Shown piece after piece: positions 4,376-44,268 of a DNA stretch of 48,506 nucleotides; position 1 is the first letter of the stretch; each line of letters starts with the position of its first letter. Below the pieces are notes generated by a model. The model was not told the DNA's origin and did no database searches. It was given only the letters and a program-made list of their open reading frames with translations. Position numbers and translations under genes: made by a program. Source of the stretch: Candidatus Aenigmatarchaeota archaeon (lineage in GTDB: Archaea; Aenigmatarchaeota; Aenigmatarchaeia; CG10238-14; SCSR01); NCBI GenBank assembly GCA_016187405.1, contig JACPJS010000010.1, positions 1-48,506 of the forward strand, in the 5' to 3' direction.

Positions 4376-4801
4376 TTAGATTGATTGTTGTGCTCTCATA
4401 ATACTTTCTAGAAATGCGATTTCAAAGTCCGATTGTTGTTGATAATCAGCTGTCCTTTGACGAACATGTGCTATTTCAGCTGTTATTTCAGCTTGTAAAT
4501 CATCCGGTTTAGATAAATTTCCTTTATAATAAAGTCTATATCCACGTGGTGTTCTTACTGGAACTTGATCCATAGATTGTGCAAGTTCTATAGCTCTTCT
4601 AGCATCTTCTTCAGTAGCTCCCTTTCCCAGTTCTCTATAATGTTCTTCATATTCTCGAGGTGAAACAACTACACCGTACGTACTGTAAGTTAAAGTTGTT
4701 GCAAAGTATCCTCTATAAATAAAACCCTGAGCTCGTCCTTCGCTATACAAAACTACGTCTCCTTCTTTTAATTCCTCTCTCTCCTGAATTTGTGAAACCA
4801 T
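4376..4801 (-). CDS. Hypothetical protein (Arg-rich ORFan class)
   Basis: 141-aa ORF with an ATG start and no motif I recognise. R:K is 13:4, Phe is 4/4 TTT and Gln is 10/12 CAA. A native-type A/T box lies 22 nt upstream. Confidence 0.6.
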   Translation of the reverse strand: MVSQIQEREELKEGDVVLYSEGRAQGFIYRGYFATTLTYSTYGVVVSPREYEEHYRELGKGATEEDARRAIELAQSMDQVPVRTPRGYRLYYKGNLSKPDDLQAEITAEIAHVRQRTADYQQQSDFEIAFLESIMRAQQSI

Positions 4802-6659: not shown

Positions 6660-7007
6660 ATGGTTGTCTTTATTAAGACAGTGTTTGAAAAAGTAAGTAT
6701 GATTGACCCTATTGTTATAGAAATTCTAACTAAAGGATTAACAGCTTCTTTAGGTATAATTCTAGGTGCGTATTTCTTCAAATCAATAAAGCATGGTATT
6801 GTAATTCCTATTGTTTCTTATAAAATAGTTACAAAAAGAGACGCTTTCATATTTTTTATAATTTCAGTATTTATTGTTGGATATTTTTCAAGTTGGATAG
6901 AACCTCAAATCAAAAATCTAATGATACAGAATGGGACGAATCTATTTCTTGGTTTTGGTTTACCTTTAATTGCTTTATGGTTTATTTTTAATAAATTATT
7001 TTATTAA
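6660..7007 (+). CDS. Hypothetical small membrane protein
   Basis: 115 aa with 3-4 hydrophobic helices. It is very A+T-rich with TTA/TTT-rich codons. No recognisable motif. Confidence 0.5.
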   Translation: MVVFIKTVFEKVSMIDPIVIEILTKGLTASLGIILGAYFFKSIKHGIVIPIVSYKIVTKRDAFIFFIISVFIVGYFSSWIEPQIKNLMIQNGTNLFLGFGLPLIALWFIFNKLFY

Positions 7008-20378: not shown

Positions 20379-20774
20379 GTGAAACTATTAGTATTTCTAC
20401 GACATCTATTACAACAAGTGAAAATAATGGATAATCAACCTTCTAGTGAAATGGACGACAGACTAGAATCTTCTGAGAGATATCATTTGGATTTAGCCCG
20501 TGGTGTAACGACAGTAAAGAGGGGTTTAGAAGAATACTCGCAGCTTTGGGATTCACTAGATAGAAGACTTGGTGATGGGAACGAAATTACGCAAGCTTAC
20601 GTAAAAGAATTTATGTCTAGAGACGATGGAGTCCATCTGCAAGATGATCCTTATGATAGAGAACGTGTTGAACTTATGAAAGCTAGTTTTCTTTACAAAC
20701 GTCTATGGCCTCCAGATCTGGCAAGAGCACTAACTTTTAGTACAATTTTCAATTCAAAGAAATATCGACGATAA
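20379..20774 (+). CDS. Hypothetical protein (Arg-rich ORFan class); start uncertain (GTG 20379 or ATG 20427)
   Basis: No recognisable motif. R:K is 13:6 counted from ATG 20427. It overlaps the downstream Cys-rich ORF by TAATG. Confidence 0.5.
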   Translation: MKLLVFLRHLLQQVKIMDNQPSSEMDDRLESSERYHLDLARGVTTVKRGLEEYSQLWDSLDRRLGDGNEITQAYVKEFMSRDDGVHLQDDPYDRERVELMKASFLYKRLWPPDLARALTFSTIFNSKKYRR

Positions 20775-34123: not shown

Positions 34124-34429
34124 TTGATCGGAACGAGTTTGGTTATATATCCTCCAGATGAAATTGAGCCTGATGTTGATCATTTATTACGCTCTATGCT
34201 TGATTCATTAGAAGATGAAATTGGAATCTTAGAGGGGATAGAAAGAGGATTGTCATATAATCACCTCCCACTTGGAGCAGCTGATTATAATAGTAGATAT
34301 CGAAAATGGAAAGACATTGCTTATCAAACTGCAGTTGGGTTAGTTGCAAAGTTTCCAGATCAAAAAGATAAGGTAAGAAAGTTGGTTGACAGAGCTTATG
34401 GATTGAAAGATGTTCAATTACCTGAATAG
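34124..34429 (+). CDS. Hypothetical protein (weak call, TTG start)
   Basis: 101-aa ORF with no ATG near its 5' end. It overlaps the 3' end of the convergent membrane ORF by 12 nt. No recognisable motif. Confidence 0.35.
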   Translation: MIGTSLVIYPPDEIEPDVDHLLRSMLDSLEDEIGILEGIERGLSYNHLPLGAADYNSRYRKWKDIAYQTAVGLVAKFPDQKDKVRKLVDRAYGLKDVQLPE

Positions 34430-34714
34430 ATAAATAATTCCTTTTTGGATTAACCATCCTATGAAAATAATATTCAATATTGTGTTTGAGAATATTCCAA
34501 GGACTGGTAATAGCAAATAAATTCCAGCAATAGTATCTGATAGACTTAACAAATTCTGTTTCATGAATGTGAATCCTATTCCTTTTACAATGAAGAATGC
34601 AACCGCTATCAATGCAATGTTTCTAGGAATCGTACCGTCTGTGAGAATATACAGTATAACAACTGAAACTGCTATCAGTTGAAGTATTCCAGTTATCTTG
34701 TGTTCAGCACCCAT
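34418..34714 (-). CDS. Hypothetical small membrane protein
   Basis: 98 aa with three hydrophobic helices. Confidence 0.55.
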   Translation of the reverse strand: MGAEHKITGILQLIAVSVVILYILTDGTIPRNIALIAVAFFIVKGIGFTFMKQNLLSLSDTIAGIYLLLPVLGIFSNTILNIIFIGWLIQKGIIYLFR

Positions 34715-34720
34715 ACCTAT

Positions 34721-35260
34721 CTATTTAGAATTCCACTCTTTTTCTTCTTTTCCTTCCTTCTTGTTCACGTATCTAGAGAGTGTGAAGAACAGATCTGATA
34801 GTCTGTTTACATATGCAACACAGTTCTCATCAAGTTGTTTTTGTTTTGACAATGATACTATACTTCGTTCGGTCCTTCTGCAAACTGCTCGTGCTACATG
34901 AAACATTGATGCAAGTTTAGTTCCTGTTGGTAAAATGAAATTTTTTAATTCTGGCAATTCTTTTTCAAACTCTAAAATATCTTCTTCAAGCAATTTTATG
35001 TCTTCAATCTTTATTTTCGGTGTGTGTGAATTTTCATTTGATGATGCTAGTTGAGAACCGATTGTGAACAGATTGTTTTGAATAGTTTCTAAAACTGAAT
35101 CAATCTCTTTGTTTTCATTGAATGATCTGATTAAACCAACGTTAGAATTTAGTTCATCTATATTGCCGTAAGATTCGACTTGCAAATTGTCTTTATCGAC
35201 TTTGGTTCCACCGAACAATGATGTTGTACCCTTGTCGCCTTGACCTATGTTGGGTTTCAT
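34721..35260 (-). CDS. ATP:cob(I)alamin adenosyltransferase, PduO/MMAB type
   Basis: Contains GDKGTTSLFGGTKVDKDNLQVESYGNIDELNSNVG and CRRTERS, typical PduO-type blocks. Confidence 0.88.
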   Translation of the reverse strand: MKPNIGQGDKGTTSLFGGTKVDKDNLQVESYGNIDELNSNVGLIRSFNENKEIDSVLETIQNNLFTIGSQLASSNENSHTPKIKIEDIKLLEEDILEFEKELPELKNFILPTGTKLASMFHVARAVCRRTERSIVSLSKQKQLDENCVAYVNRLSDLFFTLSRYVNKKEGKEEKEWNSK

Positions 35261-35291
35261 TAATTGAGATTAGAAATTAAGAATTATTAAG

Positions 35292-35711
35292 TTACTCTAG
35301 AAGTTGTGAAACAGCGTAATCAAATCTTTCAGGTGTATAGTGAAGTTTTCCTTCTTTACCTAATTGTTCAAATGCAGCTTGTATTCCACTTCTTCGAAAA
35401 CCTAGCCCACCATAACTCCTAAGATGTGTAATTTTCGTTAAATCAACACATGATTCAGGAGGAATTCTTCGTTCAATCAATCTAAATTCACTTGCAACCT
35501 CTGCAAAAGGCGAAAGATACCTCGAATACCCTAATATATAGGCTAAGGTATTTATTTGAGGTGGTGTCAAAACCTGTTCACCTAATTCCTTCGCGGCTTT
35601 TTGACAAGCTCTTTTCCGATTTATTTCTGCTCTGAAATATTCAGCACTAAGATTATAATTAAATTCTTGTAATCTTTCGTCAATATCTTGATATGTTCTT
35701 GTGGTGGGCAC
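35292..35711 (-). CDS. Hypothetical protein (Arg-rich ORFan class), last gene of the TFB operon
   Basis: 139 aa with a GTG start preceded by AGGA. R:K is 13:6. It looks mostly helical, with no recognisable motif. Confidence 0.55.
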   Translation of the reverse strand: MPTTRTYQDIDERLQEFNYNLSAEYFRAEINRKRACQKAAKELGEQVLTPPQINTLAYILGYSRYLSPFAEVASEFRLIERRIPPESCVDLTKITHLRSYGGLGFRRSGIQAAFEQLGKEGKLHYTPERFDYAVSQLLE

Positions 35712-35717
35712 TATCCT

Positions 35718-36149
35718 TCACTCTTCTTTGACTCTCTTTTTCTTTTGTATAGGCCTTGGTTTTGGTTCAATTCCATAAAAAGATGGGAAGATTCTTTGTT
35801 TAGATGGTAACTCATAAATTGTGACGTTATGTCCATTTAATCTATCGAAATCCTTTTCCCCGATAGTTGTTTGACTCTCAGGTAATTTAATATCAAAATC
35901 TGTTAGCAAACCGGCAACATCCCCTACTCTGAAGTATCCCATTGCACCAATGGCATCAATGTCTGGTTTGGGTCGTCTATAACTAACAACAACTCCGCAA
36001 CACAACGAACCTGCATAAGCTCCAGAACCAGGTAGTTGCGTAATTACAACTCTTTCTATTGTTGCTCTTCTAGGCTGTAACCAAGGTCGCAAACTTGAGA
36101 AGTCCATAGCGGAAAATGCATATCGAGTTTCAGGTTGGTATGTCGTCAT
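35718..36149 (-). CDS. Hypothetical protein (Arg-rich ORFan class), immediately downstream of tfb
   Basis: 143 aa. Its ATG lies 2 nt after the TFB stop (GAATAAATATG). It has a Lys-rich tail and no recognisable motif. Confidence 0.55.
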   Translation of the reverse strand: MTTYQPETRYAFSAMDFSSLRPWLQPRRATIERVVITQLPGSGAYAGSLCCGVVVSYRRPKPDIDAIGAMGYFRVGDVAGLLTDFDIKLPESQTTIGEKDFDRLNGHNVTIYELPSKQRIFPSFYGIEPKPRPIQKKKRVKEE

Positions 36150-36151
36150 AT

Positions 36152-37129
36152 TTATTCCTCTTTAGCTCTCTTTTCCATCTCGTCTTCAAGATTCAATTTC
36201 TTTACCAATTCAGTGTATCTGTTTCTGATTGTGACTTCTGTGATGTTTGTCGTATCAGCAACTTCTCTTTGTGTTCTCTTTTCACCGATAAGAACGCATG
36301 CTATGTAAATAGCCGCAGCTGCAACACCAGTTGGTCCTTTACCACTTGTTATGTCGTGTTTCTTTGCTTTCTTCAAAATCTCTATAGCCTTTGCCTGTAC
36401 CCTGTCGCTCAATCCCAACATTGAACAGAATCTTGGAACGTAGGACATTGGATCTGCTGGCAAAATTCTGATTTGCAATTCCCTTGAAATGTATCTATAT
36501 GTTCTTCCGATTTCTCTCTTGTCTTCACCAGATGCTTCTGTTATTTCATCCAAAGTTCTTGGTGAACCGAATTCTCTTGAAACTGCATATGTCAAAGCTG
36601 CGATAACTGATTCAATTGATCTTCCTCTGACCAATCCCTTGTTAACAGCCTGCTCGTAATATCTTGCAATTCTTTCGTGAACGCTTCTTGAAAGATTCAA
36701 GAACGAGACAATTCTCTGAAGTTCACTAAGAGCAAAAGAAAGATTTCTATCCTTAGACTTGATTAGTCTCTTGTGCCATTTTGTCAATCTGTAATATTGT
36801 GCTCTCTTCTTTGTTGGAACCTTGTACAATTCACCGACACCCTTGCCAATTTCAGTCGTCATACCCTTGTCGTGTTTTGTGAATGTTAATGGTGCACCAG
36901 ATCTTGCTCTCTTTGACATCTGTTCGGTGTCGAAAGCTCTCCATTCCTGGCCTGTATCTATCATCGATTCTTCCATGACCAATCCACAGTTGGAACAAAC
37001 AAGTTCTCCTCTCTGTGAATCTTCTAGAAAATTAGTATTACCGCAATCAGGACATTTCTTTGAATACTTTGACCCCGTCTTTGAAGGTGGAGCTGTTCTT
37101 GTTGATTTTGATACTTTTCTTTTTGGCAT
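36152..37129 (-). CDS. tfb: Transcription initiation factor B (TFIIB homolog)
   Basis: It has the Zn ribbon CPDCGNTNFLEDSQRGELVCSNCG, the B-reader/linker, and two cyclin-fold repeats. Confidence 0.95.
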   Translation of the reverse strand: MPKRKVSKSTRTAPPSKTGSKYSKKCPDCGNTNFLEDSQRGELVCSNCGLVMEESMIDTGQEWRAFDTEQMSKRARSGAPLTFTKHDKGMTTEIGKGVGELYKVPTKKRAQYYRLTKWHKRLIKSKDRNLSFALSELQRIVSFLNLSRSVHERIARYYEQAVNKGLVRGRSIESVIAALTYAVSREFGSPRTLDEITEASGEDKREIGRTYRYISRELQIRILPADPMSYVPRFCSMLGLSDRVQAKAIEILKKAKKHDITSGKGPTGVAAAAIYIACVLIGEKRTQREVADTTNITEVTIRNRYTELVKKLNLEDEMEKRAKEE

Positions 37130-37135
37130 GTTTTA

Positions 37136-37462
37136 TCACTTTCTTCTATGCCATACACCAGAAACTTCGTCTCTGCGATACAAAAGTGGCAATAATTCTT
37201 CTCTTATAGCTCTCTCAGATCCTTCTGATAGGGATAATCCCTCAGGAGACAAAGCTTGATTCAATCCATCAACAATTTCATATGCGTGGATATAACCTAG
37301 ACGAGGTAATTCATAAGTAAATGTTCTTGGACCTGGTCTAGTAATAACAGCTACAACATATGCTGACATAGCTCCATTAACTGGTCCAATTCCAAGTATT
37401 AAATGACCATGGGCTATAGAACGTCCAGTTTCTCGAGATGAACTTTGTATTGCGCTTGTCAT
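37136..37462 (-). CDS. Hypothetical protein (Arg-rich ORFan class), in frame upstream of tfb
   Basis: 108 aa with R:K of 11:1. It ends AAG TGA TAA AAC and is then followed by the tfb ATG. It is flanked by an exact 16-nt direct repeat. Confidence 0.5.
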   Translation of the reverse strand: MTSAIQSSSRETGRSIAHGHLILGIGPVNGAMSAYVVAVITRPGPRTFTYELPRLGYIHAYEIVDGLNQALSPEGLSLSEGSERAIREELLPLLYRRDEVSGVWHRRK

Positions 37463-37546
37463 GTTTTATCACTTTAGAGTGAATTCAAATTTTACTATAA
37501 ACAGTTAACTATTTAAGCATTTCGATTTTACTTATTTTAGCTTTCC

Positions 37547-38020
37547 CTAACTTAAAGATATATTACTAACACGCTTCCTAATCAAATCACCGCCGCACCT
37601 AGAACAATGCAACTGGTCGTCATAGAATTTCTCGCAGTTCTCACAGTAACTTCTCCATATAACAACCTTTTTTATTTTCTTGTCAGTGGCTGAAACATAA
37701 TTGATGCCGAATTTCTGTGCGACGTTCTGTATGTTGAAATCATTGGAAACTATTGTAAGGTTCTTTTCCTTTGCAAGCGCGAGTATTTTAACGTCTGTCT
37801 GGGATAATTTTCCAGAATCACCAGTCTCACTCGACATCTTCTTTATCTCCTTTACAGATTTTTCATCAGGCTCTCTTGTCTTGATGTTCATGCCAGATAA
37901 TTTCATAGAAGTATTTCTATCCTTAATCTCATCCATCACTTCCGGCACTGTGAATATCTCCTCAAAGTTCCTGAAATCGTTCAGGAATATCACTGCATTG
38001 GTATCCAGCACTACTTTCAT
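37547..38020 (-). CDS. nob1: PIN-domain endonuclease with C-terminal zinc ribbon (archaeal Nob1-like)
   Basis: The PIN start is MKVVLDTNAVIF, with acidic residues spaced as in PIN domains. The C-terminus is CENC...CSRCG. Confidence 0.78.
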   Translation of the reverse strand: MKVVLDTNAVIFLNDFRNFEEIFTVPEVMDEIKDRNTSMKLSGMNIKTREPDEKSVKEIKKMSSETGDSGKLSQTDVKILALAKEKNLTIVSNDFNIQNVAQKFGINYVSATDKKIKKVVIWRSYCENCEKFYDDQLHCSRCGGDLIRKRVSNISLS

Positions 38021-39168: not shown

Positions 39169-39945
39169 ATGACTGGAGTTAGTACACGACTGGATGAATC
39201 TCAACAAGATACTAAACCTGCTTATACCCAACGTGTTGTATCTGGATTGTGGCATACTATTGATGAACTGAAAGTAGCTCAAGATGCCAGACTTCCGCCA
39301 GGTTATACAGTAAGTGTTAAATACAATTATGTTAATACACCGCATTATTACAATAATACAGCGAAAGTTACAGTTACACCTGACCGTATTTATGTTTTTG
39401 GTGGTGAACTGCAACCACGTACAGCATTGGTTGAACTGGGTAATCCGTATTCAGTTTATGACGAAAGACATCTTTATGTTGATCCGGATAATGTTAAACT
39501 TGAGAAAGCTGTAAGATTGTTGGCGCTCCATATTCAAGATGATATAAGAAGAAGAGGTAATGAAGAGGTAGAATTCATGTATGGCAAACTTAAAGACGCC
39601 GTTGAAAAAGGACTTATCATACCCGATGAAATACCATTAAGAAACATACCTGTTGGTAATCATGAATTTCCTGAGTTAATGGAGACCGCACAAGGAAATG
39701 CAATACTGCCTCAGAATGTAGGTGATTTCAGAGAAAACCCCATGGCATTATTTTGTTATCCTTTAGTTGGTTTACAAGAATACGAACGAATCGTAAAAAG
39801 ATTGTATAATGATTTTGGTATTCAGATACCACACAGCATGCGGCTAGATTTGGACTCTCTTGCTAGAAAATCAAATGCAAACGAAAAAAAGAGAAGACGC
39901 GTGTATATTGGTTTTGCATCGCATTATGAAGTTGATGTGGGATAA
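39169..39945 (+). CDS. Hypothetical protein (Arg-rich ORFan class)
   Basis: 258 aa with an ATG start and R:K of 19:13. No recognisable motif. It converges on the 3' end of the 23S rRNA. Confidence 0.6.
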   Translation: MTGVSTRLDESQQDTKPAYTQRVVSGLWHTIDELKVAQDARLPPGYTVSVKYNYVNTPHYYNNTAKVTVTPDRIYVFGGELQPRTALVELGNPYSVYDERHLYVDPDNVKLEKAVRLLALHIQDDIRRRGNEEVEFMYGKLKDAVEKGLIIPDEIPLRNIPVGNHEFPELMETAQGNAILPQNVGDFRENPMALFCYPLVGLQEYERIVKRLYNDFGIQIPHSMRLDLDSLARKSNANEKKRRRVYIGFASHYEVDVG

Positions 39946-40003: not shown

Positions 40004-40037
40004 CACTATTCATAGGAACAGGTCATTTATCAAGGCC
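40004..40037 (-). repeat. 3' half of the 23S rRNA processing stem (bulge-helix-bulge-like)
   Basis: nt 40004-40023 are the perfect reverse complement of 43201-43220 (20 bp). A second short helix pairs aaggcc (40032-40037) with ggcctt (43187-43192) across unpaired bases. Confidence 0.85.
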
Positions 40038-43000
40038 CATCAATCTCAGACGATTAGTAAGAGCCAGCTGAAATTCTCGCTCGAAAGCTTGAATCTTACA
40101 CCGCTCTCCTATCAACGCTATCGTCTATAGCAGTCCTCGTCCAATCACCGGTCCTTGCGAACCAGCAATCGGAATAGTTGTCTATTTTTTCGGATGGTTT
40201 CGTCCTTAGATGCTTTCAGGTCTTATCCATGTATGGCTTAGCTGCCCAGCAATGCGCAAACAACTGGTACACCAGAGGCCACGGGGGGATGTTCCTTTCG
40301 TACTTAACCCTCCTTCCGATCAGACAACTGACACCTCCTGTAGATAGCGACCGAACTGTCTCACAACGTTCTGAACCCAGCTAGCGTCCCCTTTTAACCA
40401 GTGGACACCTGTACCCTTGGCCGCTGCTGCACGGCCAGGAGAGGGGGAGCCGACAACGACGCATCAACGCGCCGGGTCAATTTACTCGCACATTATCTTC
40501 TGGGAAATAAATCGACCCCAAAGAGCTATATGCCAGTGAGCTTTCACCGGCCACGAACCCATTATCCCCGAGGTAGCTTTTCTCATACCACCGGCACCCA
40601 TTAATGGTAACCGATGTATCGCTAACCCGCGCTTTCGCGGTTGAATTCCTTGCTGGTCGGAATCCAATCAGACTTCCTTTTGCGTTTATGCTCTATTCCG
40701 GATTTCTGTCGGGTAATGTGAAATGATAAACCGTAACTCATAAGCTACCTCGCTTATCATCTTTTTTTCAAACATAAAGCTTGTATTCATCATCACGTAC
40801 ACAATTCACACTATGACCCGGATGAGGAAATCTTAGGAGACCCTTGATCCTTTATCGAGGGTGTACCGCCCCAGCCGAACTACCCATCTGATGCTGTTCT
40901 CTTGCAAGTAAGCAATACAATTCTGAAAGGGTAGTGTTACAATTGCCTCTCAGTTTTACCCAAAGGCAAAACCTGATAGCGAGTCCTACCTACACTATGC
41001 AGCCAAAATCGTACCGCAACAACAGACTGTAGTAAAGCTCTACGGGGTCTACGTTTCCCACAGGAGGTCTCAGGCCTATTCACCTGAAAAGCAACTTCAC
41101 TGGGTATCAGTTCAAGACAGTAGAGAAGTCGTTAAGCCATTCAGACGGGCCGTCAATCAAACGGCAAGGGATTACGCTACTTTACGACGGTCAGAGTTAC
41201 CGCCACCGTTTACTAGGGCTTTTTTCGGTTGAACCCGAATTTCACACACTAGTACTGGGTAGGCATCAGAAACTGTACTTATCTTTTCAGACTTGCAGTC
41301 TCAGTTGTTTTTGTTAAACAGTCGCTCCCCTCTTGTTATTGAAACCTACAGTTCCCCTTGCGGAAAACCATAGGCACTCCTTCTCGCGAACTTACGGAGC
41401 CAAATTGCCGAGTTCCTTGAACAGAGTTGTCCCAACACGCCTTCGCCTTCTCAGCGAGTCCACCTGTGACGGTTCTCGGTATGGACATGAAGGATCCTTC
41501 CCGATTCGATTTTCACGGGCTCCTAGAGTCGACAGAACTCTACATACATAGAGCTATTCCTACTTTCCTCTCTTTCTCCTCGTTACAAGACTCCAGAGAA
41601 TTCAGTAGTTAACTTGCGTCTGCCTATCTTGAAGCGTCTCAAATCGGGCTTGCGTTACCGCGCGTACCTCCATGGTATCGGAATATTAACCGATTTCCCT
41701 ATCGTGTTTTTAGATTAGCGAAACACTTAGGACCAACTAACTGCCAGCTGACGAACATTGCTGACAAACCCTTGGACTTTAGGCGGCTGGAATTCTCATC
41801 CAGCTATGTTGCTACTATTGGCAGGATCTTTATTTCTACATGATCTACTCCTGCTCACGCAGAAGCTTCTATTCACGAAGAACACTCATCTACCCTCTCT
41901 TTCGAGAGCTTGAGTATCGATAGCTGACTTAGTCCCTTCCATTTTCAGGGCATAAATCCTCGGTAGGTAAGTTGTTACACACTTCTTAGCTAATGGCTAC
42001 TTCTAAGCCTATAGTCCTACTGTCTGAGGATTCACACTCCCTTCTTCGTTTAGTCAGCATTTAGGGATCTTAACTCAAGTCTGGCTTTTTTTCCTTTTGG
42101 ACGCCGAGCTTACCCCAGCGACCTAACTCCGGTCTTCTACGACTACAAGAGATTCGGAGTTTAACAAGAAAACTGGACCTTTCGATCCGTGGTTTTCTAA
42201 TTAGTATCTCTACCCTCCCGTAAGTCTCAGACCAGGCTGCACCAAGATGCATTTCGATGAGAACCAGCTATCACTAGATTCGATAGGCTTTTCACCCCTA
42301 ACCCCGGATCACCCGAAGGAATGGATCTCACAACCGGTAGCGGACCTCCACCTACCTTTCAGTAGGCTTCATCCTGCCCAGGGTTAGATCATCTAGTTTC
42401 AGGTCCTATCCTAGTAACTTCAGGCACTTTCACACCTTGTCCCACGCAGTTTTTACACTGTTACGGACGTATCGCTTTCGCTTGTGTTCCTTGGCTTAAA
42501 CCAATTAACATCGCTACTAGGATAGACTCCCTGCCCCGTTTTTCGGAACGGACGATACGATCCTGTAATCTATCTTTCGTACCACAAGTTCTCACTTGTT
42601 TCCTTCAAGACAGAACCTTCCGGACCGTATCTGACTATGACCACATTGGTTTCAAGCTCTATTTCACCCTGTTTTCACAGTACTTTTCAGCTTTCAATCG
42701 CTTTACTACTTTGCTATCGGACTTTGGCAATATTTAGAGTTGCTAGTTAATTCTAGCGGATTTATGCACAATATTCAGTGTACATTACTCAGGATACTCG
42801 CCATTTCCCACCAATCTACCTCTACGGGACTATCACCCTCTAAGGTGCCGTTTTCCAACAGACTTTAAGTCGAGAGGTTCAGGGAAGACACGAGTCCTAC
42901 AACACCACATCCATCCTTGCTTTCACAAGGTGTTCGGTTTGCTCTGTTTCGCTTTCGCTCGCCGTTACTCGCGAAATCTCAATTGATTTCTCTTCCTGCG

Positions 43001-43186
43001 GCTACTAAGATGCTTCAATTTACCGCGTTCCTTACCCTTTCGGGTTGACTCTCAACGAGCCATGATTCACATTTAGACATTCCAGGGTCAAATCCTCCTT
43101 GCGGATAACCTGGACTTATCACAGCTTGGCATGTCCTTCTTCAGTCCCAAAGCCTAGCTATCCACCAAGTGGCGTATTTATTGACA
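40038..43186 (-). rRNA. rrl: 23S rRNA (about 3.15 kb; ends +/- 20 nt)
   Basis: On the minus strand I read the 5' block GCCACTTGGTGGATAGCTAGGCTTTGGGACTGAAGAAGGACATGCCAAGCTG. I also read the P-loop CTGGGGCGG, the PTC blocks GGGGATAA and GTCGGCTC, GAGACAGTTCGGTC, and the sarcin-ricin loop AGTACGAAAGGAAC. Confidence 0.92.
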
Positions 43187-43220
43187 GGCCTTATTGACCA
43201 ACCTGTTCCTATGAATAGTG
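43187..43220 (-). repeat. 5' half of the 23S rRNA processing stem
   Basis: It is the partner of 40004-40037 (see that feature). Confidence 0.85.
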
Positions 43221-43543
43221 TCATCTTTGTGGTTTCATTTGACAGTTCGCTCTTCATATCAGCATCAGATACTAAACTTCAATCACTAACCTTCACTCTT
43301 CAATCCATATACGCATATGGATCTGCATAAACATAGATGCCTCATGCGAAATTTTTAGAATCACAGAGAAGCACGTGTAATTAAACACTCCTATGAAGCG
43401 GTTTAGGCAAACATAGTATCACAATTTTTGTATTAACTTTATTGACACCAAACGTTTAAATAGATTTCGAGATTTCGGGCGTTGCCTAAGAAGTGATTCT
43501 TGCACAAAAAGTTCTTTAATTGATTTGAGATAAATTATTATTA

Positions 43544-44206
43544 ATGCCATACAAACTTTCGCCTTCTTCATTGTCTTTATTGAAAGAATGTCCGAGATGT
43601 TTCTGGCTCCAATTTAACAAAAAGATACATAGACCTAACGGTGTATTTCCATCTCTCCCGTCAGGTATGGACAGAATATTCAAGACACATTTTGATTCCT
43701 TCCGTGACAAAGGATTGTTACCGCCTGAACTTGAAAAACTGGATGGCAGTACGAAATTATTTGGTGACAAGCAAGTTCTGGATATATGGAGAAACAATCT
43801 CAAAGGCATTCAATGGACTGACGATGAAGGCAACATATTCAGGGGTGCAGTCGATAATATCCTCCAGAAAGGCAAGAAACTCATAGTCCTTGATTACAAA
43901 ACAAGAGGATATGAACTGAAGGAAGACACCCATGAACACTATCAGGACCAGTTGGACATCTACAACCTCCTGTTAAGGAAGAACGGGTATGATACAGAAG
44001 ATTATGCATATCTACTGTTCTATTATCCTAATAAAATTAATGAGAACGGGGATGTGCTGTTTCACAATAAGTTGCTGAAAATGAAGATTTCAATAAAGAA
44101 TGCCGAAAGGATTTTTAAGGAAGCTATTAATATCTTAAAGGGAGATATGCCGGAAATCAATGATGATTGTGTATTTTGTGAATGGATTGAAGTGAACAAT
44201 ATATAA
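43544..44206 (+). CDS. PD-(D/E)XK nuclease, Cas4/RecB-like with Cys cluster
   Basis: Has an N-terminal CPRC. The core is GAVDNIL...LIVLDYKT....QDQLDIYNLL, with a C-terminal CVFC. No CRISPR array or other cas gene is present in the window. Confidence 0.78.
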   Translation: MPYKLSPSSLSLLKECPRCFWLQFNKKIHRPNGVFPSLPSGMDRIFKTHFDSFRDKGLLPPELEKLDGSTKLFGDKQVLDIWRNNLKGIQWTDDEGNIFRGAVDNILQKGKKLIVLDYKTRGYELKEDTHEHYQDQLDIYNLLLRKNGYDTEDYAYLLFYYPNKINENGDVLFHNKLLKMKISIKNAERIFKEAINILKGDMPEINDDCVFCEWIEVNNI

Positions 44207-44268
44207 GAAGTGTATTATGTTAAATGAAGAAAACATTAAAAAAGAAATTAAAACTCAATTCTATCAAT

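What the first reader, a model, noticed from the sequence alone, without database searches (positions are those of the whole stretch)
35292..37462. General transcription factor TFB embedded in a four-gene operon with three ORFans
On the minus strand the order is orf108 - tfb - orf143 - orf139, with gaps of 6, 2 and 6 nt and no promoter-like box in between. The nearest box (GCTTAAAT) lies upstream of orf108. TFB would therefore be co-transcribed and probably translationally coupled with three proteins of unknown function. All three are Arg-rich with non-native codon preference, whereas tfb itself is native-like. They are candidates for TFB-binding modulators, or for a selfish element that has hijacked an essential gene's transcript.
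Basis: partly seen in the sequence, partly recalled or inferred. Interest (0 to 1): 0.65.

Follow-up and report, generated by a model that had tools for sequence, protein, structure and literature searches.

The report
Orphan genes inserted around archaeal tfb
In this groundwater DPANN archaeon (Aenigmatarchaeota), three genes with no known relatives were inserted exactly at the start and stop of the transcription factor B gene and probably use its promoter, and related species carry different unrelated genes at the same two junctions, so this looks like a gene-insertion hot spot rather than a TFB partner system.

Summary
On the minus strand, orf108, tfb, orf143 and orf139 are separated by 6, 2 and 6 nt. 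The only strong TATA-like box lies upstream of orf108.

Comparison with 80 Aenigmatarchaeota tfb loci changes the interpretation:
- That box is the conserved ancestral tfb promoter and leader.
- orf108 sits between the leader and the tfb ATG, and 20 nt (SD plus ATG) are duplicated.
- orf143 and orf139 sit directly after the tfb stop. The last 24 nt of orf143 look like a copy of the tfb 3' end.
- Relatives L003, L007 and L009 have PIN-tfb-cobA with no inserts.
- No ORFan has a homologue, in the relatives or in 5.8 billion proteins.
- Both tfb junctions are insertion hot spots: 31/48 versus 12/86 at neighbouring junctions. In other species they hold unrelated small ORFs, IS240-type transposases and LAGLIDADG-type genes.

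The ORFans score as coding. Their synonymous codon choice is host-like, so the "non-native" claim fails. GC3 is unusually low and the proteins are Arg-rich, as in other accessory genes here.

Best reading: accessory passenger genes that use tfb's transcription. A TFB-modulator role is unsupported. Co-transcription is inferred only, because no RNA data exist.

The parts
37510..37518 (-). BRE/TATA-like box (GCTTAAATA). It is the ancestral tfb promoter and now lies upstream of orf108.
   Evidence: It aligns with the conserved 'aaagaTTTAAATAgtttactgtttataga...' promoter that precedes tfb in L002-L004, L006-L009 and L056. It is the only strong TATA-like hexamer upstream of the cluster.
37456..37475 (-). 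Direct-repeat copy 1: leader end, SD (GTGAT) and ATG. It now serves orf108.
   Evidence: the repeat finder family D5, 19/20 identical to 37123-37142 with 333 nt spacing. The 16-nt core occurs only at these two places in the window.
37136..37462 (-). orf108, an ORFan inserted between the tfb leader/SD and the tfb ATG. Its TGA stop lies inside the duplicated SD.
   Evidence: Only a self hit in 5.8e9 proteins. Codes in its own frame, margin 0.166. GC3 is 0.157 and R/(R+K) is 0.92.
37123..37142 (-). Direct-repeat copy 2: SD and ATG, retained for tfb.
36152..37129 (-). tfb (transcription initiation factor B/TFIIB), conserved and strongly codon-biased.
   Evidence: It is 65-93% identical to the tfb of 80 Aenigmatarchaeota loci. 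RSCU score 0.263, and all 30 Arg codons are AGR (AGA/AGG).
36151..36174 (-). tfb 3'-terminal codons and stop (…EKRAKEE*): reference copy of the 3' repeat. The GAGGA within it is placed as an SD for orf143.
   Evidence: the repeat finder family D2; sequence.
35718..36149 (-). orf143, an ORFan that starts 2 nt after the tfb stop.
   Evidence: The exhaustive HMMER hits are repeat-summing artefacts. Coding margin 0.134. AF2 pLDDT 47.8, unusable.
35717..35740 (-). The orf143 3' end (…KKRVKEE*) looks like an in-frame duplicate of a tfb 3' terminus.
   Evidence: 19/24 identical to 36151-36174 with 434 nt spacing. It is the best match in the 2.6 kb downstream of tfb (18/24 as counted), shuffle p 0.005. 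It is 21/23 identical to the tfb 3' end of L001.
35292..35711 (-). orf139, an ORFan with a GTG start and no internal Met.
   Evidence: Coding margin 0.068, weak but positive. AF2 pLDDT 44.7.
35261..35291 (-). Ancestral tfb-cobA spacer, now between orf139 and cobA.
   Evidence: It resembles the 29-nt tfb-cobA spacers of L003 and L009.
34418..35260 (-). cobA (Cob_adeno_trans, 34721-35260) and orf98 (34418-34714): conserved downstream genes and the probable tail of the same transcription unit.
   Evidence: Pfam; synteny in relatives. There is no TATA-like hexamer before cobA. The first intergenic T5 run on this strand is at 34366-34362, after orf98.
37547..38020 (-). PIN_6 plus Zn-ribbon (Nob1-like) gene, the conserved upstream anchor.
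   Evidence: Pfam PF17146, E 4.6e-20. It is syntenic in 28 loci.

Best explanation
The three ORFans are lineage-specific accessory genes. They were inserted into an ancestral [promoter]-tfb-cobA-orf98 unit exactly at the two borders of tfb.

Anatomy.
- orf108 landed between the tfb leader/SD and the tfb ATG. It therefore took over the conserved tfb promoter, leader and SD, and a 20-nt copy of SD plus ATG was kept for tfb.
- orf143 and orf139 landed directly after the tfb stop. orf143 ends in what looks like a copy of the last tfb codons and stop.

Expression (inferred). All four genes, and probably cobA and orf98, are transcribed from the one tfb promoter. Translation is by SD-dependent initiation or reinitiation across gaps of 2-6 nt.

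Why here (inferred from comparison). Both flanks of tfb are hot spots of gene turnover across Aenigmatarchaeota. The likely cause is that the very conserved tfb sequence serves as a homology anchor or target for recombination and mobile elements.

Nature of the ORFans. They behave as passengers from an AT3-rich accessory gene pool, either a mobile element or a virus of unknown type. They gain expression from an essential, well-expressed gene and are hard to delete imprecisely. Nothing indicates that they act on TFB.
For: Shown:
- ORF layout and gaps.
- The promoter, leader and SD that precede tfb in relatives precede orf108 here.
- A 19/20 direct repeat brackets orf108 and is unique in the window.
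- A 19/24 repeat of the tfb 3' end forms the orf143 3' end. Shuffle p is 0.005, and it is 21/23 identical to the L001 tfb end.
- The orf139-cobA spacer matches the relatives' tfb-cobA spacer.
- L003, L007 and L009 have PIN-tfb-cobA with no insert.
- There are no ORFan homologues in the 80 loci, in 5.8e9 proteins, in the viral contig scans or in PDB.
- Insertions above 300 nt occur at PIN-tfb in 18/28 loci and at tfb-cobA in 13/20, against 12/86 at five neighbouring junctions (Fisher OR 11, p 4e-9).
- 29 ORFs that abut tfb in the same orientation in relatives fall into 25 unrelated families. Of the 20 co-oriented flanking ORFs scanned, 17 have no Pfam match.
- IS240 DDE transposases (L004, L012, L013), LAGLIDADG_1 (L021) and a LAGLIDADG_3 plus wHTH family that abuts the tfb stop (L001, L012, L017) occupy the same junctions.
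- The ORFans code in their own frame, and antisense controls are negative.
- Low GC3 marks them and 18/19 of the relatives' abutting ORFs (p 7.6e-6). In the window, 7 of the 9 other low-GC3 genes have no Pfam match and 2 are defence- or mobile-element-like.
- There is no TATA-like box and no T5 run at the internal junctions.
- Depth is uniform and no variants appear in four metagenomes.
Against: - No RNA data exist, so co-transcription and translation are unproven.
- The coding signal of orf139 lies below the range of the reference genes (0.068 against a minimum of 0.082).
- The hot-spot statistic ignores phylogenetic non-independence, rests on only seven junctions within +/-6 kb of tfb, and has no genome-wide control.
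- The 3' repeat is purine-rich and low in complexity.
- No mobile-element gene lies next to tfb in the window itself, so the insertion mechanism is not identified.
- Absence of homologues cannot exclude a lineage-specific function that involves TFB.
Confidence: 0.6

Rival explanations
1. The ORFans are lineage-specific modulators of TFB, TBP or RNAP. Co-expression and translational coupling with tfb would set their stoichiometry.
For: The ORFs are tightly packed and co-oriented under the tfb promoter. The proteins are basic and Arg-rich. Many relatives also have some small ORF that abuts tfb.
Against: The ORFans are not conserved in any of 80 relatives or anywhere else. The abutting ORFs of relatives are mutually unrelated. 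Close relatives work with no such partner (L003, L007, L009). There is no recognisable domain and no usable structure. The same junctions hold transposases and metabolic genes.
Confidence: 0.08
2. tfb flanks are a dedicated capture site for promoterless ORFs, or a homing target. Insertion would be driven by a site-specific activity, for example free-standing LAGLIDADG endonucleases that cut conserved tfb sequence and co-convert flanking DNA, or short-repeat recombination at the tfb SD.
For: Repeats bracket orf108 and orf143. L001 and L005 have a different ORF at the same leader/ATG position. L001 also carries a duplicated SD; the copy in L005 is degenerate. LAGLIDADG-type genes abut tfb in L001, L012, L017 and L021. 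The hot spot is significantly enriched. Free-standing homing endonucleases are known to mobilise flanking DNA (PMC2790892).
Against: There is no endonuclease, integrase or transposase next to tfb in the window. No attC-like inverted repeats lie at the borders. Relatives' downstream inserts lack the 3' repeat. The repeats consist of functional signals that selection alone would preserve. Insert sizes and orientations in relatives are heterogeneous.
Confidence: 0.15
3. The small ORFs next to tfb are positional orthologues of one or two ancient, very fast-evolving tfb-linked genes. They have diverged beyond recognition and were lost in some lineages.
For: The window groups with L001, and L005 is basal in the same clade. 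All three have an upstream ORF. L001U and L005U are only 33% identical, while core proteins are about 81% identical.
Against: hhalign of the L001U/L005U profile against orf108 gives probability 0.25%. At similar core divergence, an orthologue should be about 30% identical and detectable. Lengths differ (108 aa against about 145 aa). Insert-free relatives keep an intact short leader and spacer. Direct repeats indicate insertion.
Confidence: 0.08
4. The ORFans are not functional genes. They are untranslated relics or chance ORFs in inserted DNA.
For: They have no homologues and no population variation that could test for purifying selection. The coding signal of orf139 is weak and it starts with GTG. 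Spurious antisense ORFs of 102-145 aa exist in this genome.
Against: All three score as coding in their own frame, while five antisense controls score negative. Each has an SD-like motif at -5 to -13. There are no competing ORFs on the other strand across most of 35292-36116. The ORFs fill the inserts end to end, leaving gaps of 2-6 nt.
Confidence: 0.09

Closest known systems
Gene-flux hot spots, or flexible genomic islets, between conserved core genes. Novel ORFan genes are concentrated in such islands (Hsiao et al. 2005, PMC1285063). Hypervariable regions next to rRNA genes in streamlined bacteria are a further example, cited from my own knowledge.
   Same: Variable and mostly unannotated gene content sits between the same conserved anchors across species. 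It is enriched relative to neighbouring junctions. Mobile-element genes are present in some genomes. Composition is atypical, with low GC3.
   Different: The inserts here are single small ORFs placed inside an essential gene's transcription unit, at its SD/ATG and at its stop codon. They have no promoter of their own, and the host gene's translation signals are duplicated.
Integron gene cassettes: promoterless ORFs captured downstream of a resident promoter.
   Same: Promoterless ORFs are stacked in one orientation behind a single promoter. Short direct repeats lie at two borders. Different 'cassettes' occupy the same site in different genomes.
   Different: No integrase and no attC-type inverted repeats are present. 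The repeats are the host gene's own SD/ATG and 3' codons. An essential gene sits in the middle of the array.
Free-standing homing endonuclease genes of T4-like phages, which undergo 'intronless homing' and mobilise flanking DNA (PMC2790892, PMC2988022).
   Same: Endonuclease-type genes (LAGLIDADG) lie immediately beside a highly conserved gene in several relatives, and the neighbouring DNA is variable.
   Different: No endonuclease gene lies next to tfb in the window. Cleavage of tfb is untested. The hosts are cellular archaeal chromosomes, not phages.
Archaeal TFB / eukaryotic TFIIB (the tfb gene itself).
   Same: A Zn ribbon plus two cyclin-like repeats, scoring above the NCBIfam cutoff.
   Different: Nothing unusual in the protein. 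Only its genomic embedding is unusual.

Membership tests
TFB/TFIIB (tfb gene) | N-terminal zinc ribbon | tested here: met
   PF08271, E 2.7e-18, residues 25-66.
TFB/TFIIB (tfb gene) | Two cyclin-like TFIIB repeats, with a full-length match above the curated cutoff | tested here: met
   PF00382, 2 stretches, E 6.3e-42. NF001658, 409.8 bits against a cutoff of 384.
Operon (single transcription unit) | Same strand and very short intergenic gaps | tested here: met
   Gaps of 6, 2 and 6 nt, then 31 nt to cobA and 6 nt to orf98.
Operon (single transcription unit) | No internal promoter or terminator motifs, and one upstream promoter | tested here: met
   The only TATA-like box within 80 nt of a start codon is upstream of orf108. 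There are no T5 runs at the junctions. This is motif-level evidence only.
Operon (single transcription unit) | A polycistronic RNA that spans the junctions | not testable with these tools
   No RNA run holds the locus.
Gene-flux hot spot between core genes | Different gene content between the same conserved anchors in related genomes | tested here: met
   The PIN-tfb gap is 21-5691 nt and the tfb-cobA gap is 22-2281 nt. There are 25 unrelated families among 29 abutting ORFs.
Gene-flux hot spot between core genes | Enrichment over other junctions | tested here: met
   31/48 against 12/86, Fisher p 4e-9. The control is local (five junctions) and is not corrected for phylogeny.
Gene-flux hot spot between core genes | Mobile-element hallmark genes in some occupants | tested here: met
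   IS240 DDE transposases in L004, L012 and L013. LAGLIDADG in L021 and L012.
Integron cassette array | Tyrosine-recombinase integrase next to the array | tested here: not met
   The neighbours are a PIN/Nob1-like gene, a histone gene, eIF5A, cobA and orf98.
Integron cassette array | attC-type imperfect inverted repeats at cassette ends | tested here: not met
   No inverted repeat lies at any ORF border.
IS/transposon insertion | Transposase, terminal inverted repeats and a short target-site duplication | tested here: not met
   There is no transposase domain in the ORFans and no terminal inverted repeats. The direct repeats are 20-24 nt, imperfect, and made of tfb signals.
Toxin-antitoxin or known defence module (orf143/orf139 pair) | A match to a known toxin, antitoxin or defence protein family | tested here: not met
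   Pfam, NCBIfam and PADLOC give no match.

The most novel reading that the evidence does not exclude
In Aenigmatarchaeota the general transcription factor gene tfb may act as a dedicated landing pad for promoterless ORFs. They would be captured precisely at its SD/ATG and at its stop codon. The mechanism would be homing-type or short-repeat recombination that duplicates tfb's own translation signals. Foreign genes would then gain instant expression and protection from deletion by hiding inside an essential transcript. Some of them could then be co-opted as lineage-specific modulators of transcription initiation.
Probability: 0.12. Interest if true: 0.8.

Novelty: new member of a known kind. 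Interest (0 to 1): 0.4.

Why it matters
This is a clean, base-pair-resolved example of how orphan genes enter a streamlined DPANN genome. They insert at the exact borders of an essential, highly conserved gene, take over its promoter and leader, and leave its translation signals duplicated and intact.

Unrelated ORFs, transposases and LAGLIDADG-type genes recur at the same two junctions in many species. This points to conserved genes acting as anchors for gene flux in Aenigmatarchaeota.

It also cautions against reading tight operon linkage with a key factor as functional partnership. If the ORFans did act on TFB, they would be a new class of archaeal transcription modulators, but the present evidence argues against that.

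Tried and rejected
1. Homology searches for all three ORFans returned nothing real. I tried Pfam, NCBIfam, PHROGs and PADLOC, the 5.8e9-protein search, PDB sequences, viral contig scans, and tblastn and phmmer with E up to 10 against the 80 related loci.

2. The exhaustive HMMER scan for orf143 gave 15 'hits' with E down to 5e-19. All 15 are long proteins (462-5992 aa) hit through several weak stretches, and the seven I examined are BspA-LRR or cadherin-like repeat proteins. Matches of about 22 bits to many repeats are summed, and different families hit different parts of the query. I rejected them as artefacts.

3. AlphaFold2 without an alignment gave pLDDT 44.7 for orf139 and 47.8 for orf143. 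These models are unusable, so I ran no fold search.

4. Origin by tandem duplication, with orf108 derived from the tfb 5' part and orf143 from the tfb 3' part (suggested by the 333 and 434 nt repeat spacings). Rejected: apart from the border repeats there is no DNA or protein similarity, and the predicted secondary structure is beta-rich whereas the TFB cyclin fold is all-alpha.

5. Antisense or alternative-frame origin from native genes. The GC1/GC2/GC3 pattern (about 0.5/0.45/0.17) matches no permutation of the native 0.445/0.332/0.368.

6. 'Non-native codon usage' is not supported by the RSCU score.

7. Search for closer relatives. The metagenome scan with the PIN protein found nothing above 59% identity. 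Other runs hold only tfb k-mers.

8. Assembly chimera. Rejected by four independent assemblies with co-varying depth. Contig breaks inside tfb come from k-mers shared with co-occurring relatives.

9. The bacterial promoter and terminator scanner was not used, because it does not apply to archaeal promoters.

10. Literature searches found no report of tfb-linked ORFan cassettes.
Full report
**1. Observation**

On the minus strand the window holds four ORFs:
- orf108, 37136-37462
- tfb, 36152-37129
- orf143, 35718-36149
- orf139, 35292-35711, with a GTG start

The gaps between them are 6, 2 and 6 nt.

tfb is an unambiguous TFB. It has a Zn ribbon (PF08271, E 2.7e-18) and two TFIIB repeats (E 6e-42), and it scores 409.8 bits on NCBIfam NF001658 against a cutoff of 384. 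The other three ORFs match nothing in Pfam, NCBIfam, PHROGs or PADLOC.

The box GCTTAAAT lies at 37518-37511, upstream of orf108. No TATA-like hexamer lies within 80 nt upstream of tfb, orf143, orf139 or cobA.

The locus is not an assembly artefact. Both tfb-ORFan junctions lie inside independent contigs from four groundwater metagenome runs. Depth equals that of the flanks and there are no variants. Public contigs break inside tfb (36770-36796) only because co-occurring relatives share tfb k-mers.

**2. Organism and context**

The neighbours are:
- a PIN_6/Nob1-like gene (37547-38020, minus strand)
- a histone gene and eIF5A (plus strand)
- 23S rRNA (40034-43190)
- downstream, cob(I)alamin adenosyltransferase (34721-35260) and a 98-aa ORF

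A scan of species-representative genomes with the TFB protein returned 80 loci. Those labelled to phylum are, with one exception (L076, labelled Nanoarchaeota), Aenigmatarchaeota (DPANN) MAGs, and their TFB is 65-93% identical to the window's.

The conserved order in the closest clade is eIF5A <- histone <- | PIN -> tfb -> cobA -> orf98 | <- AP_endonuc_2 <- orf411.

**3. The ORFans are lineage-specific insertions at the borders of tfb**

None of the three has a tblastn or phmmer hit, even at E <= 10, in any of the 80 loci. L003, L007 and L009 have PIN, a promoter/leader of about 115 nt, tfb, a spacer of 29-100 nt and then cobA, with nothing in between.

In those relatives tfb is preceded by a conserved promoter and leader, 'aaagaTTTAAATAgtttactgtttatagataatctaataaaatttgatttacttcaaaGTGATAAAtaATG'. 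In the window the same promoter, leader and SD precede orf108.

A 20-nt segment (AAAGTGATAAAACATG-N-CAA) is repeated 333 nt downstream in front of tfb. The copies are 19/20 identical, and the 16-nt core is found nowhere else in the window. The orf108 TGA stop lies inside the second GTGATAA.

At the other end, orf143 starts 2 nt after the tfb stop. Its last 24 nt (…KKRVKEE-TGA) are 19/24 identical, and in frame, with the tfb terminus (…EKRAKEE-TAA). This is the best match in the 2.6 kb downstream of tfb (shuffle p 0.005), and it is 21/23 identical to the tfb terminus of relative L001.

The 31-nt spacer after orf139 resembles the relatives' tfb-cobA spacer. The ancestral unit was therefore promoter-tfb-cobA(-orf98). 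orf108 was inserted between the leader and the ATG, and orf143-orf139 right after the stop. In both cases tfb's translation signals remained intact.

**4. No homologues anywhere**

Each ORFan finds only itself among 5.8 billion clustered proteins. Nothing turns up in the viral contig scans or in PDB sequences.

An exhaustive HMMER scan of 1.84 billion representatives with orf143 listed 15 long proteins (462-5992 aa) besides orf143 itself. The seven I examined are BspA-type LRR or cadherin-like repeat proteins. They were hit through many summed matches of about 22 bits to their repeats, and unrelated families hit different parts of the query. These are artefacts.

AlphaFold2 without an alignment gave pLDDT 44.7 and 47.8, so I attempted no fold comparison.

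**5. Are they genes?**

A frame-specific codon model was trained on 45 window genes. It puts all three ORFans in their own frame, with margins of 0.166, 0.134 and 0.068. Reference genes score 0.224 +/- 0.058 with a minimum of 0.082. Five spurious antisense ORFs all score negative.

Each ORFan has an SD-like motif 5-13 nt upstream of its start. They are probably real, weakly optimised genes. orf139 is the least certain.

**6. Composition**

The scores of 0.143, 0.151 and 0.264 compare with a window mean of 0.121 +/- 0.051. Arg AGR use is 26/36 against 505/624. tfb is the outlier, with a score of 0.263 and 30/30 AGR (AGA/AGG) Arg codons.

The ORFans are atypical in other ways:
- GC3 is 0.16-0.27, against 0.37.
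- GC2 is 0.41-0.50, against 0.33.
- Arg is 8.4-10.2%, against 4.1%.
- R/(R+K) is 0.57-0.92, against 0.31.

Nine other window genes share the low GC3. Seven have no Pfam match. The other two are a Schlafen/DUF2075-type helicase and a MazG-like protein, both typical accessory genes.

In 19 relatives, the lineage-specific ORFs that abut tfb have lower GC3 than the conserved genes of the same locus in 18 cases. The mean difference is -0.18 (p 7.6e-6), whatever the host GC3, which ranges from 0.22 to 0.85. This points to a shared AT3-rich accessory or foreign gene pool rather than to native or de novo origin.

**7. A recurrent hot spot**

| Junction | Loci with a gap above 300 nt |
|---|---|
| PIN-tfb | 18/28 |
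| tfb-cobA | 13/20 |
| Five neighbouring junctions combined | 12/86 |

The odds ratio is 11 and Fisher p is 4e-9. This is not corrected for phylogeny.

L001 and L005 carry a different ORF of about 145 aa at exactly the leader/ATG position. L001 also has a duplicated SD; in L005 the copy is degenerate. That ORF is unrelated to orf108 (hhalign probability 0.25%). L024, and L070 with L080, carry yet others.

Directly after the tfb stop, L056 (TAAATG), L033, L002, L013, L010 and further loci carry unrelated co-oriented ORFs. In all, 29 such abutting ORFs form 25 families. Of the 20 co-oriented flanking ORFs scanned, 17 have no Pfam match.

The same junctions also hold:
- IS240-type DDE transposases in L004, L012 and L013
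- a LAGLIDADG_1 endonuclease in L021
- a LAGLIDADG_3 plus winged-helix family that abuts the tfb stop in L001, L012 and L017

**8. How it most likely works**

Shown: the anatomy and the comparative pattern described above.

Inferred:
- One transcript runs from the tfb promoter through orf108-tfb-orf143-orf139 and probably cobA-orf98. The only intergenic T5 run on this strand is at 34366-34362.
- Translation proceeds by SD-dependent initiation or reinitiation across the gaps of 2-6 nt.
- The ORFans are passengers from a mobile or accessory pool. They persist because they are expressed from, and physically interleaved with, an essential gene.

The insertion mechanism is unresolved. Homology-anchored recombination at the very conserved tfb, and endonuclease-triggered repair comparable to the intronless homing of free-standing homing endonucleases (PMC2790892), are both compatible with the data.

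No evidence ties the ORFans functionally to TFB. No RNA data exist.

**9. Comparison and novelty**

This is a member of the known class of gene-flux hot spots, or ORFan-rich flexible islets, between core genes (PMC1285063). Its unusual and tidy feature is insertion inside the transcription unit of a general transcription factor, at that gene's start and stop signals.

It resembles an integron array in logic: promoterless ORFs sit behind one promoter. It fails the membership tests, because there is no integrase and no attC. It is not an IS element, a TA module or a known defence module.

**10. Verdict**

The operon architecture is plausible and the hijack-like embedding is supported. The TFB-modulator idea and the codon argument are not.
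- Interest is moderate (0.4).
- The most novel reading still open is a dedicated capture or homing site at tfb, at about 12%.

Noticed in passing
window 43191-47953: tRNA-Ala(TGC) (47881-47953, minus strand) and the 23S rRNA (40034-43190, minus strand) are 4.7 kb apart. The gap has GC of 0.29-0.30 around 44-46 kb. It encodes a Schlafen-group-3/DUF2075-type helicase (44269-45579) and a MazG-like protein (46045-46404). This looks like another accessory or defence-like insert next to very conserved sequence. No 16S rRNA is in the window.
   Followed up: partly
window 40034-43190: The 23S rRNA match spans 3157 nt against a 2987-nt Rfam model, so about 170 nt of extra sequence (insertions or expansions) were not examined.
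   Followed up: no
window 4376-4801, 6660-7007, 20379-20774, 34124-34429, 39169-39945, 47065-47787, 47998-48342: Seven further genes with low GC3 (<=0.24) have no Pfam match. Several have a TTAAAT box about 30 nt before the ATG, which is a leaderless-type arrangement. Low GC3 seems to mark the accessory or ORFan gene class of this genome.
   Followed up: partly
window 34124-34429 (+): A 101-aa ORFan lies between the AP_endonuc_2 gene and orf98 and overlaps the orf98 3' end by 12 nt. It is absent from all relatives, where this junction is 0-19 nt in 6 of 8 loci.
   Followed up: partly
L001 1925-3076, L012 6922-7959, L017 6908-8023 (all minus strand, convergent with tfb): A family of 345-383 aa has a LAGLIDADG_3-like domain (24.5 bits in L012, cutoff 22.5) and a C-terminal MarR/ArsR-like winged helix (PDB 3f3x, E 1.6e-6). 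It starts or ends within a few nt of the tfb stop in three species, which makes it a possible free-standing homing-type gene.
   Followed up: partly
L004 4827-5849, L012 5054-5443, L013 3143-4327: IS240-type DDE transposase genes, one of them truncated, lie between PIN or histone and tfb in three relatives.
   Followed up: partly
window 36121-36939 in runs X1-X4: Contig depth over the conserved part of tfb rises up to about 10-fold (up to about 600x) with many variant positions. Numerous related Aenigmatarchaeota populations therefore co-occur in the same groundwater. One 85%-similar contig joins 35260 directly to 36152, which is tfb followed by cobA without orf143/orf139.
   Followed up: partly
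L037 2234-3100 and 3540-4436: Two tfb paralogues in tandem (85% and 42% identical to the window's TFB) occur in one relative.
   Followed up: no
window 36822-37259 (+) and 36116-36424 (+): Antisense ORFs of 145 and 102 aa run opposite tfb. They score clearly non-coding and were used as negative controls. They are a reminder that ORF length alone is weak evidence in this genome.
   Followed up: yes
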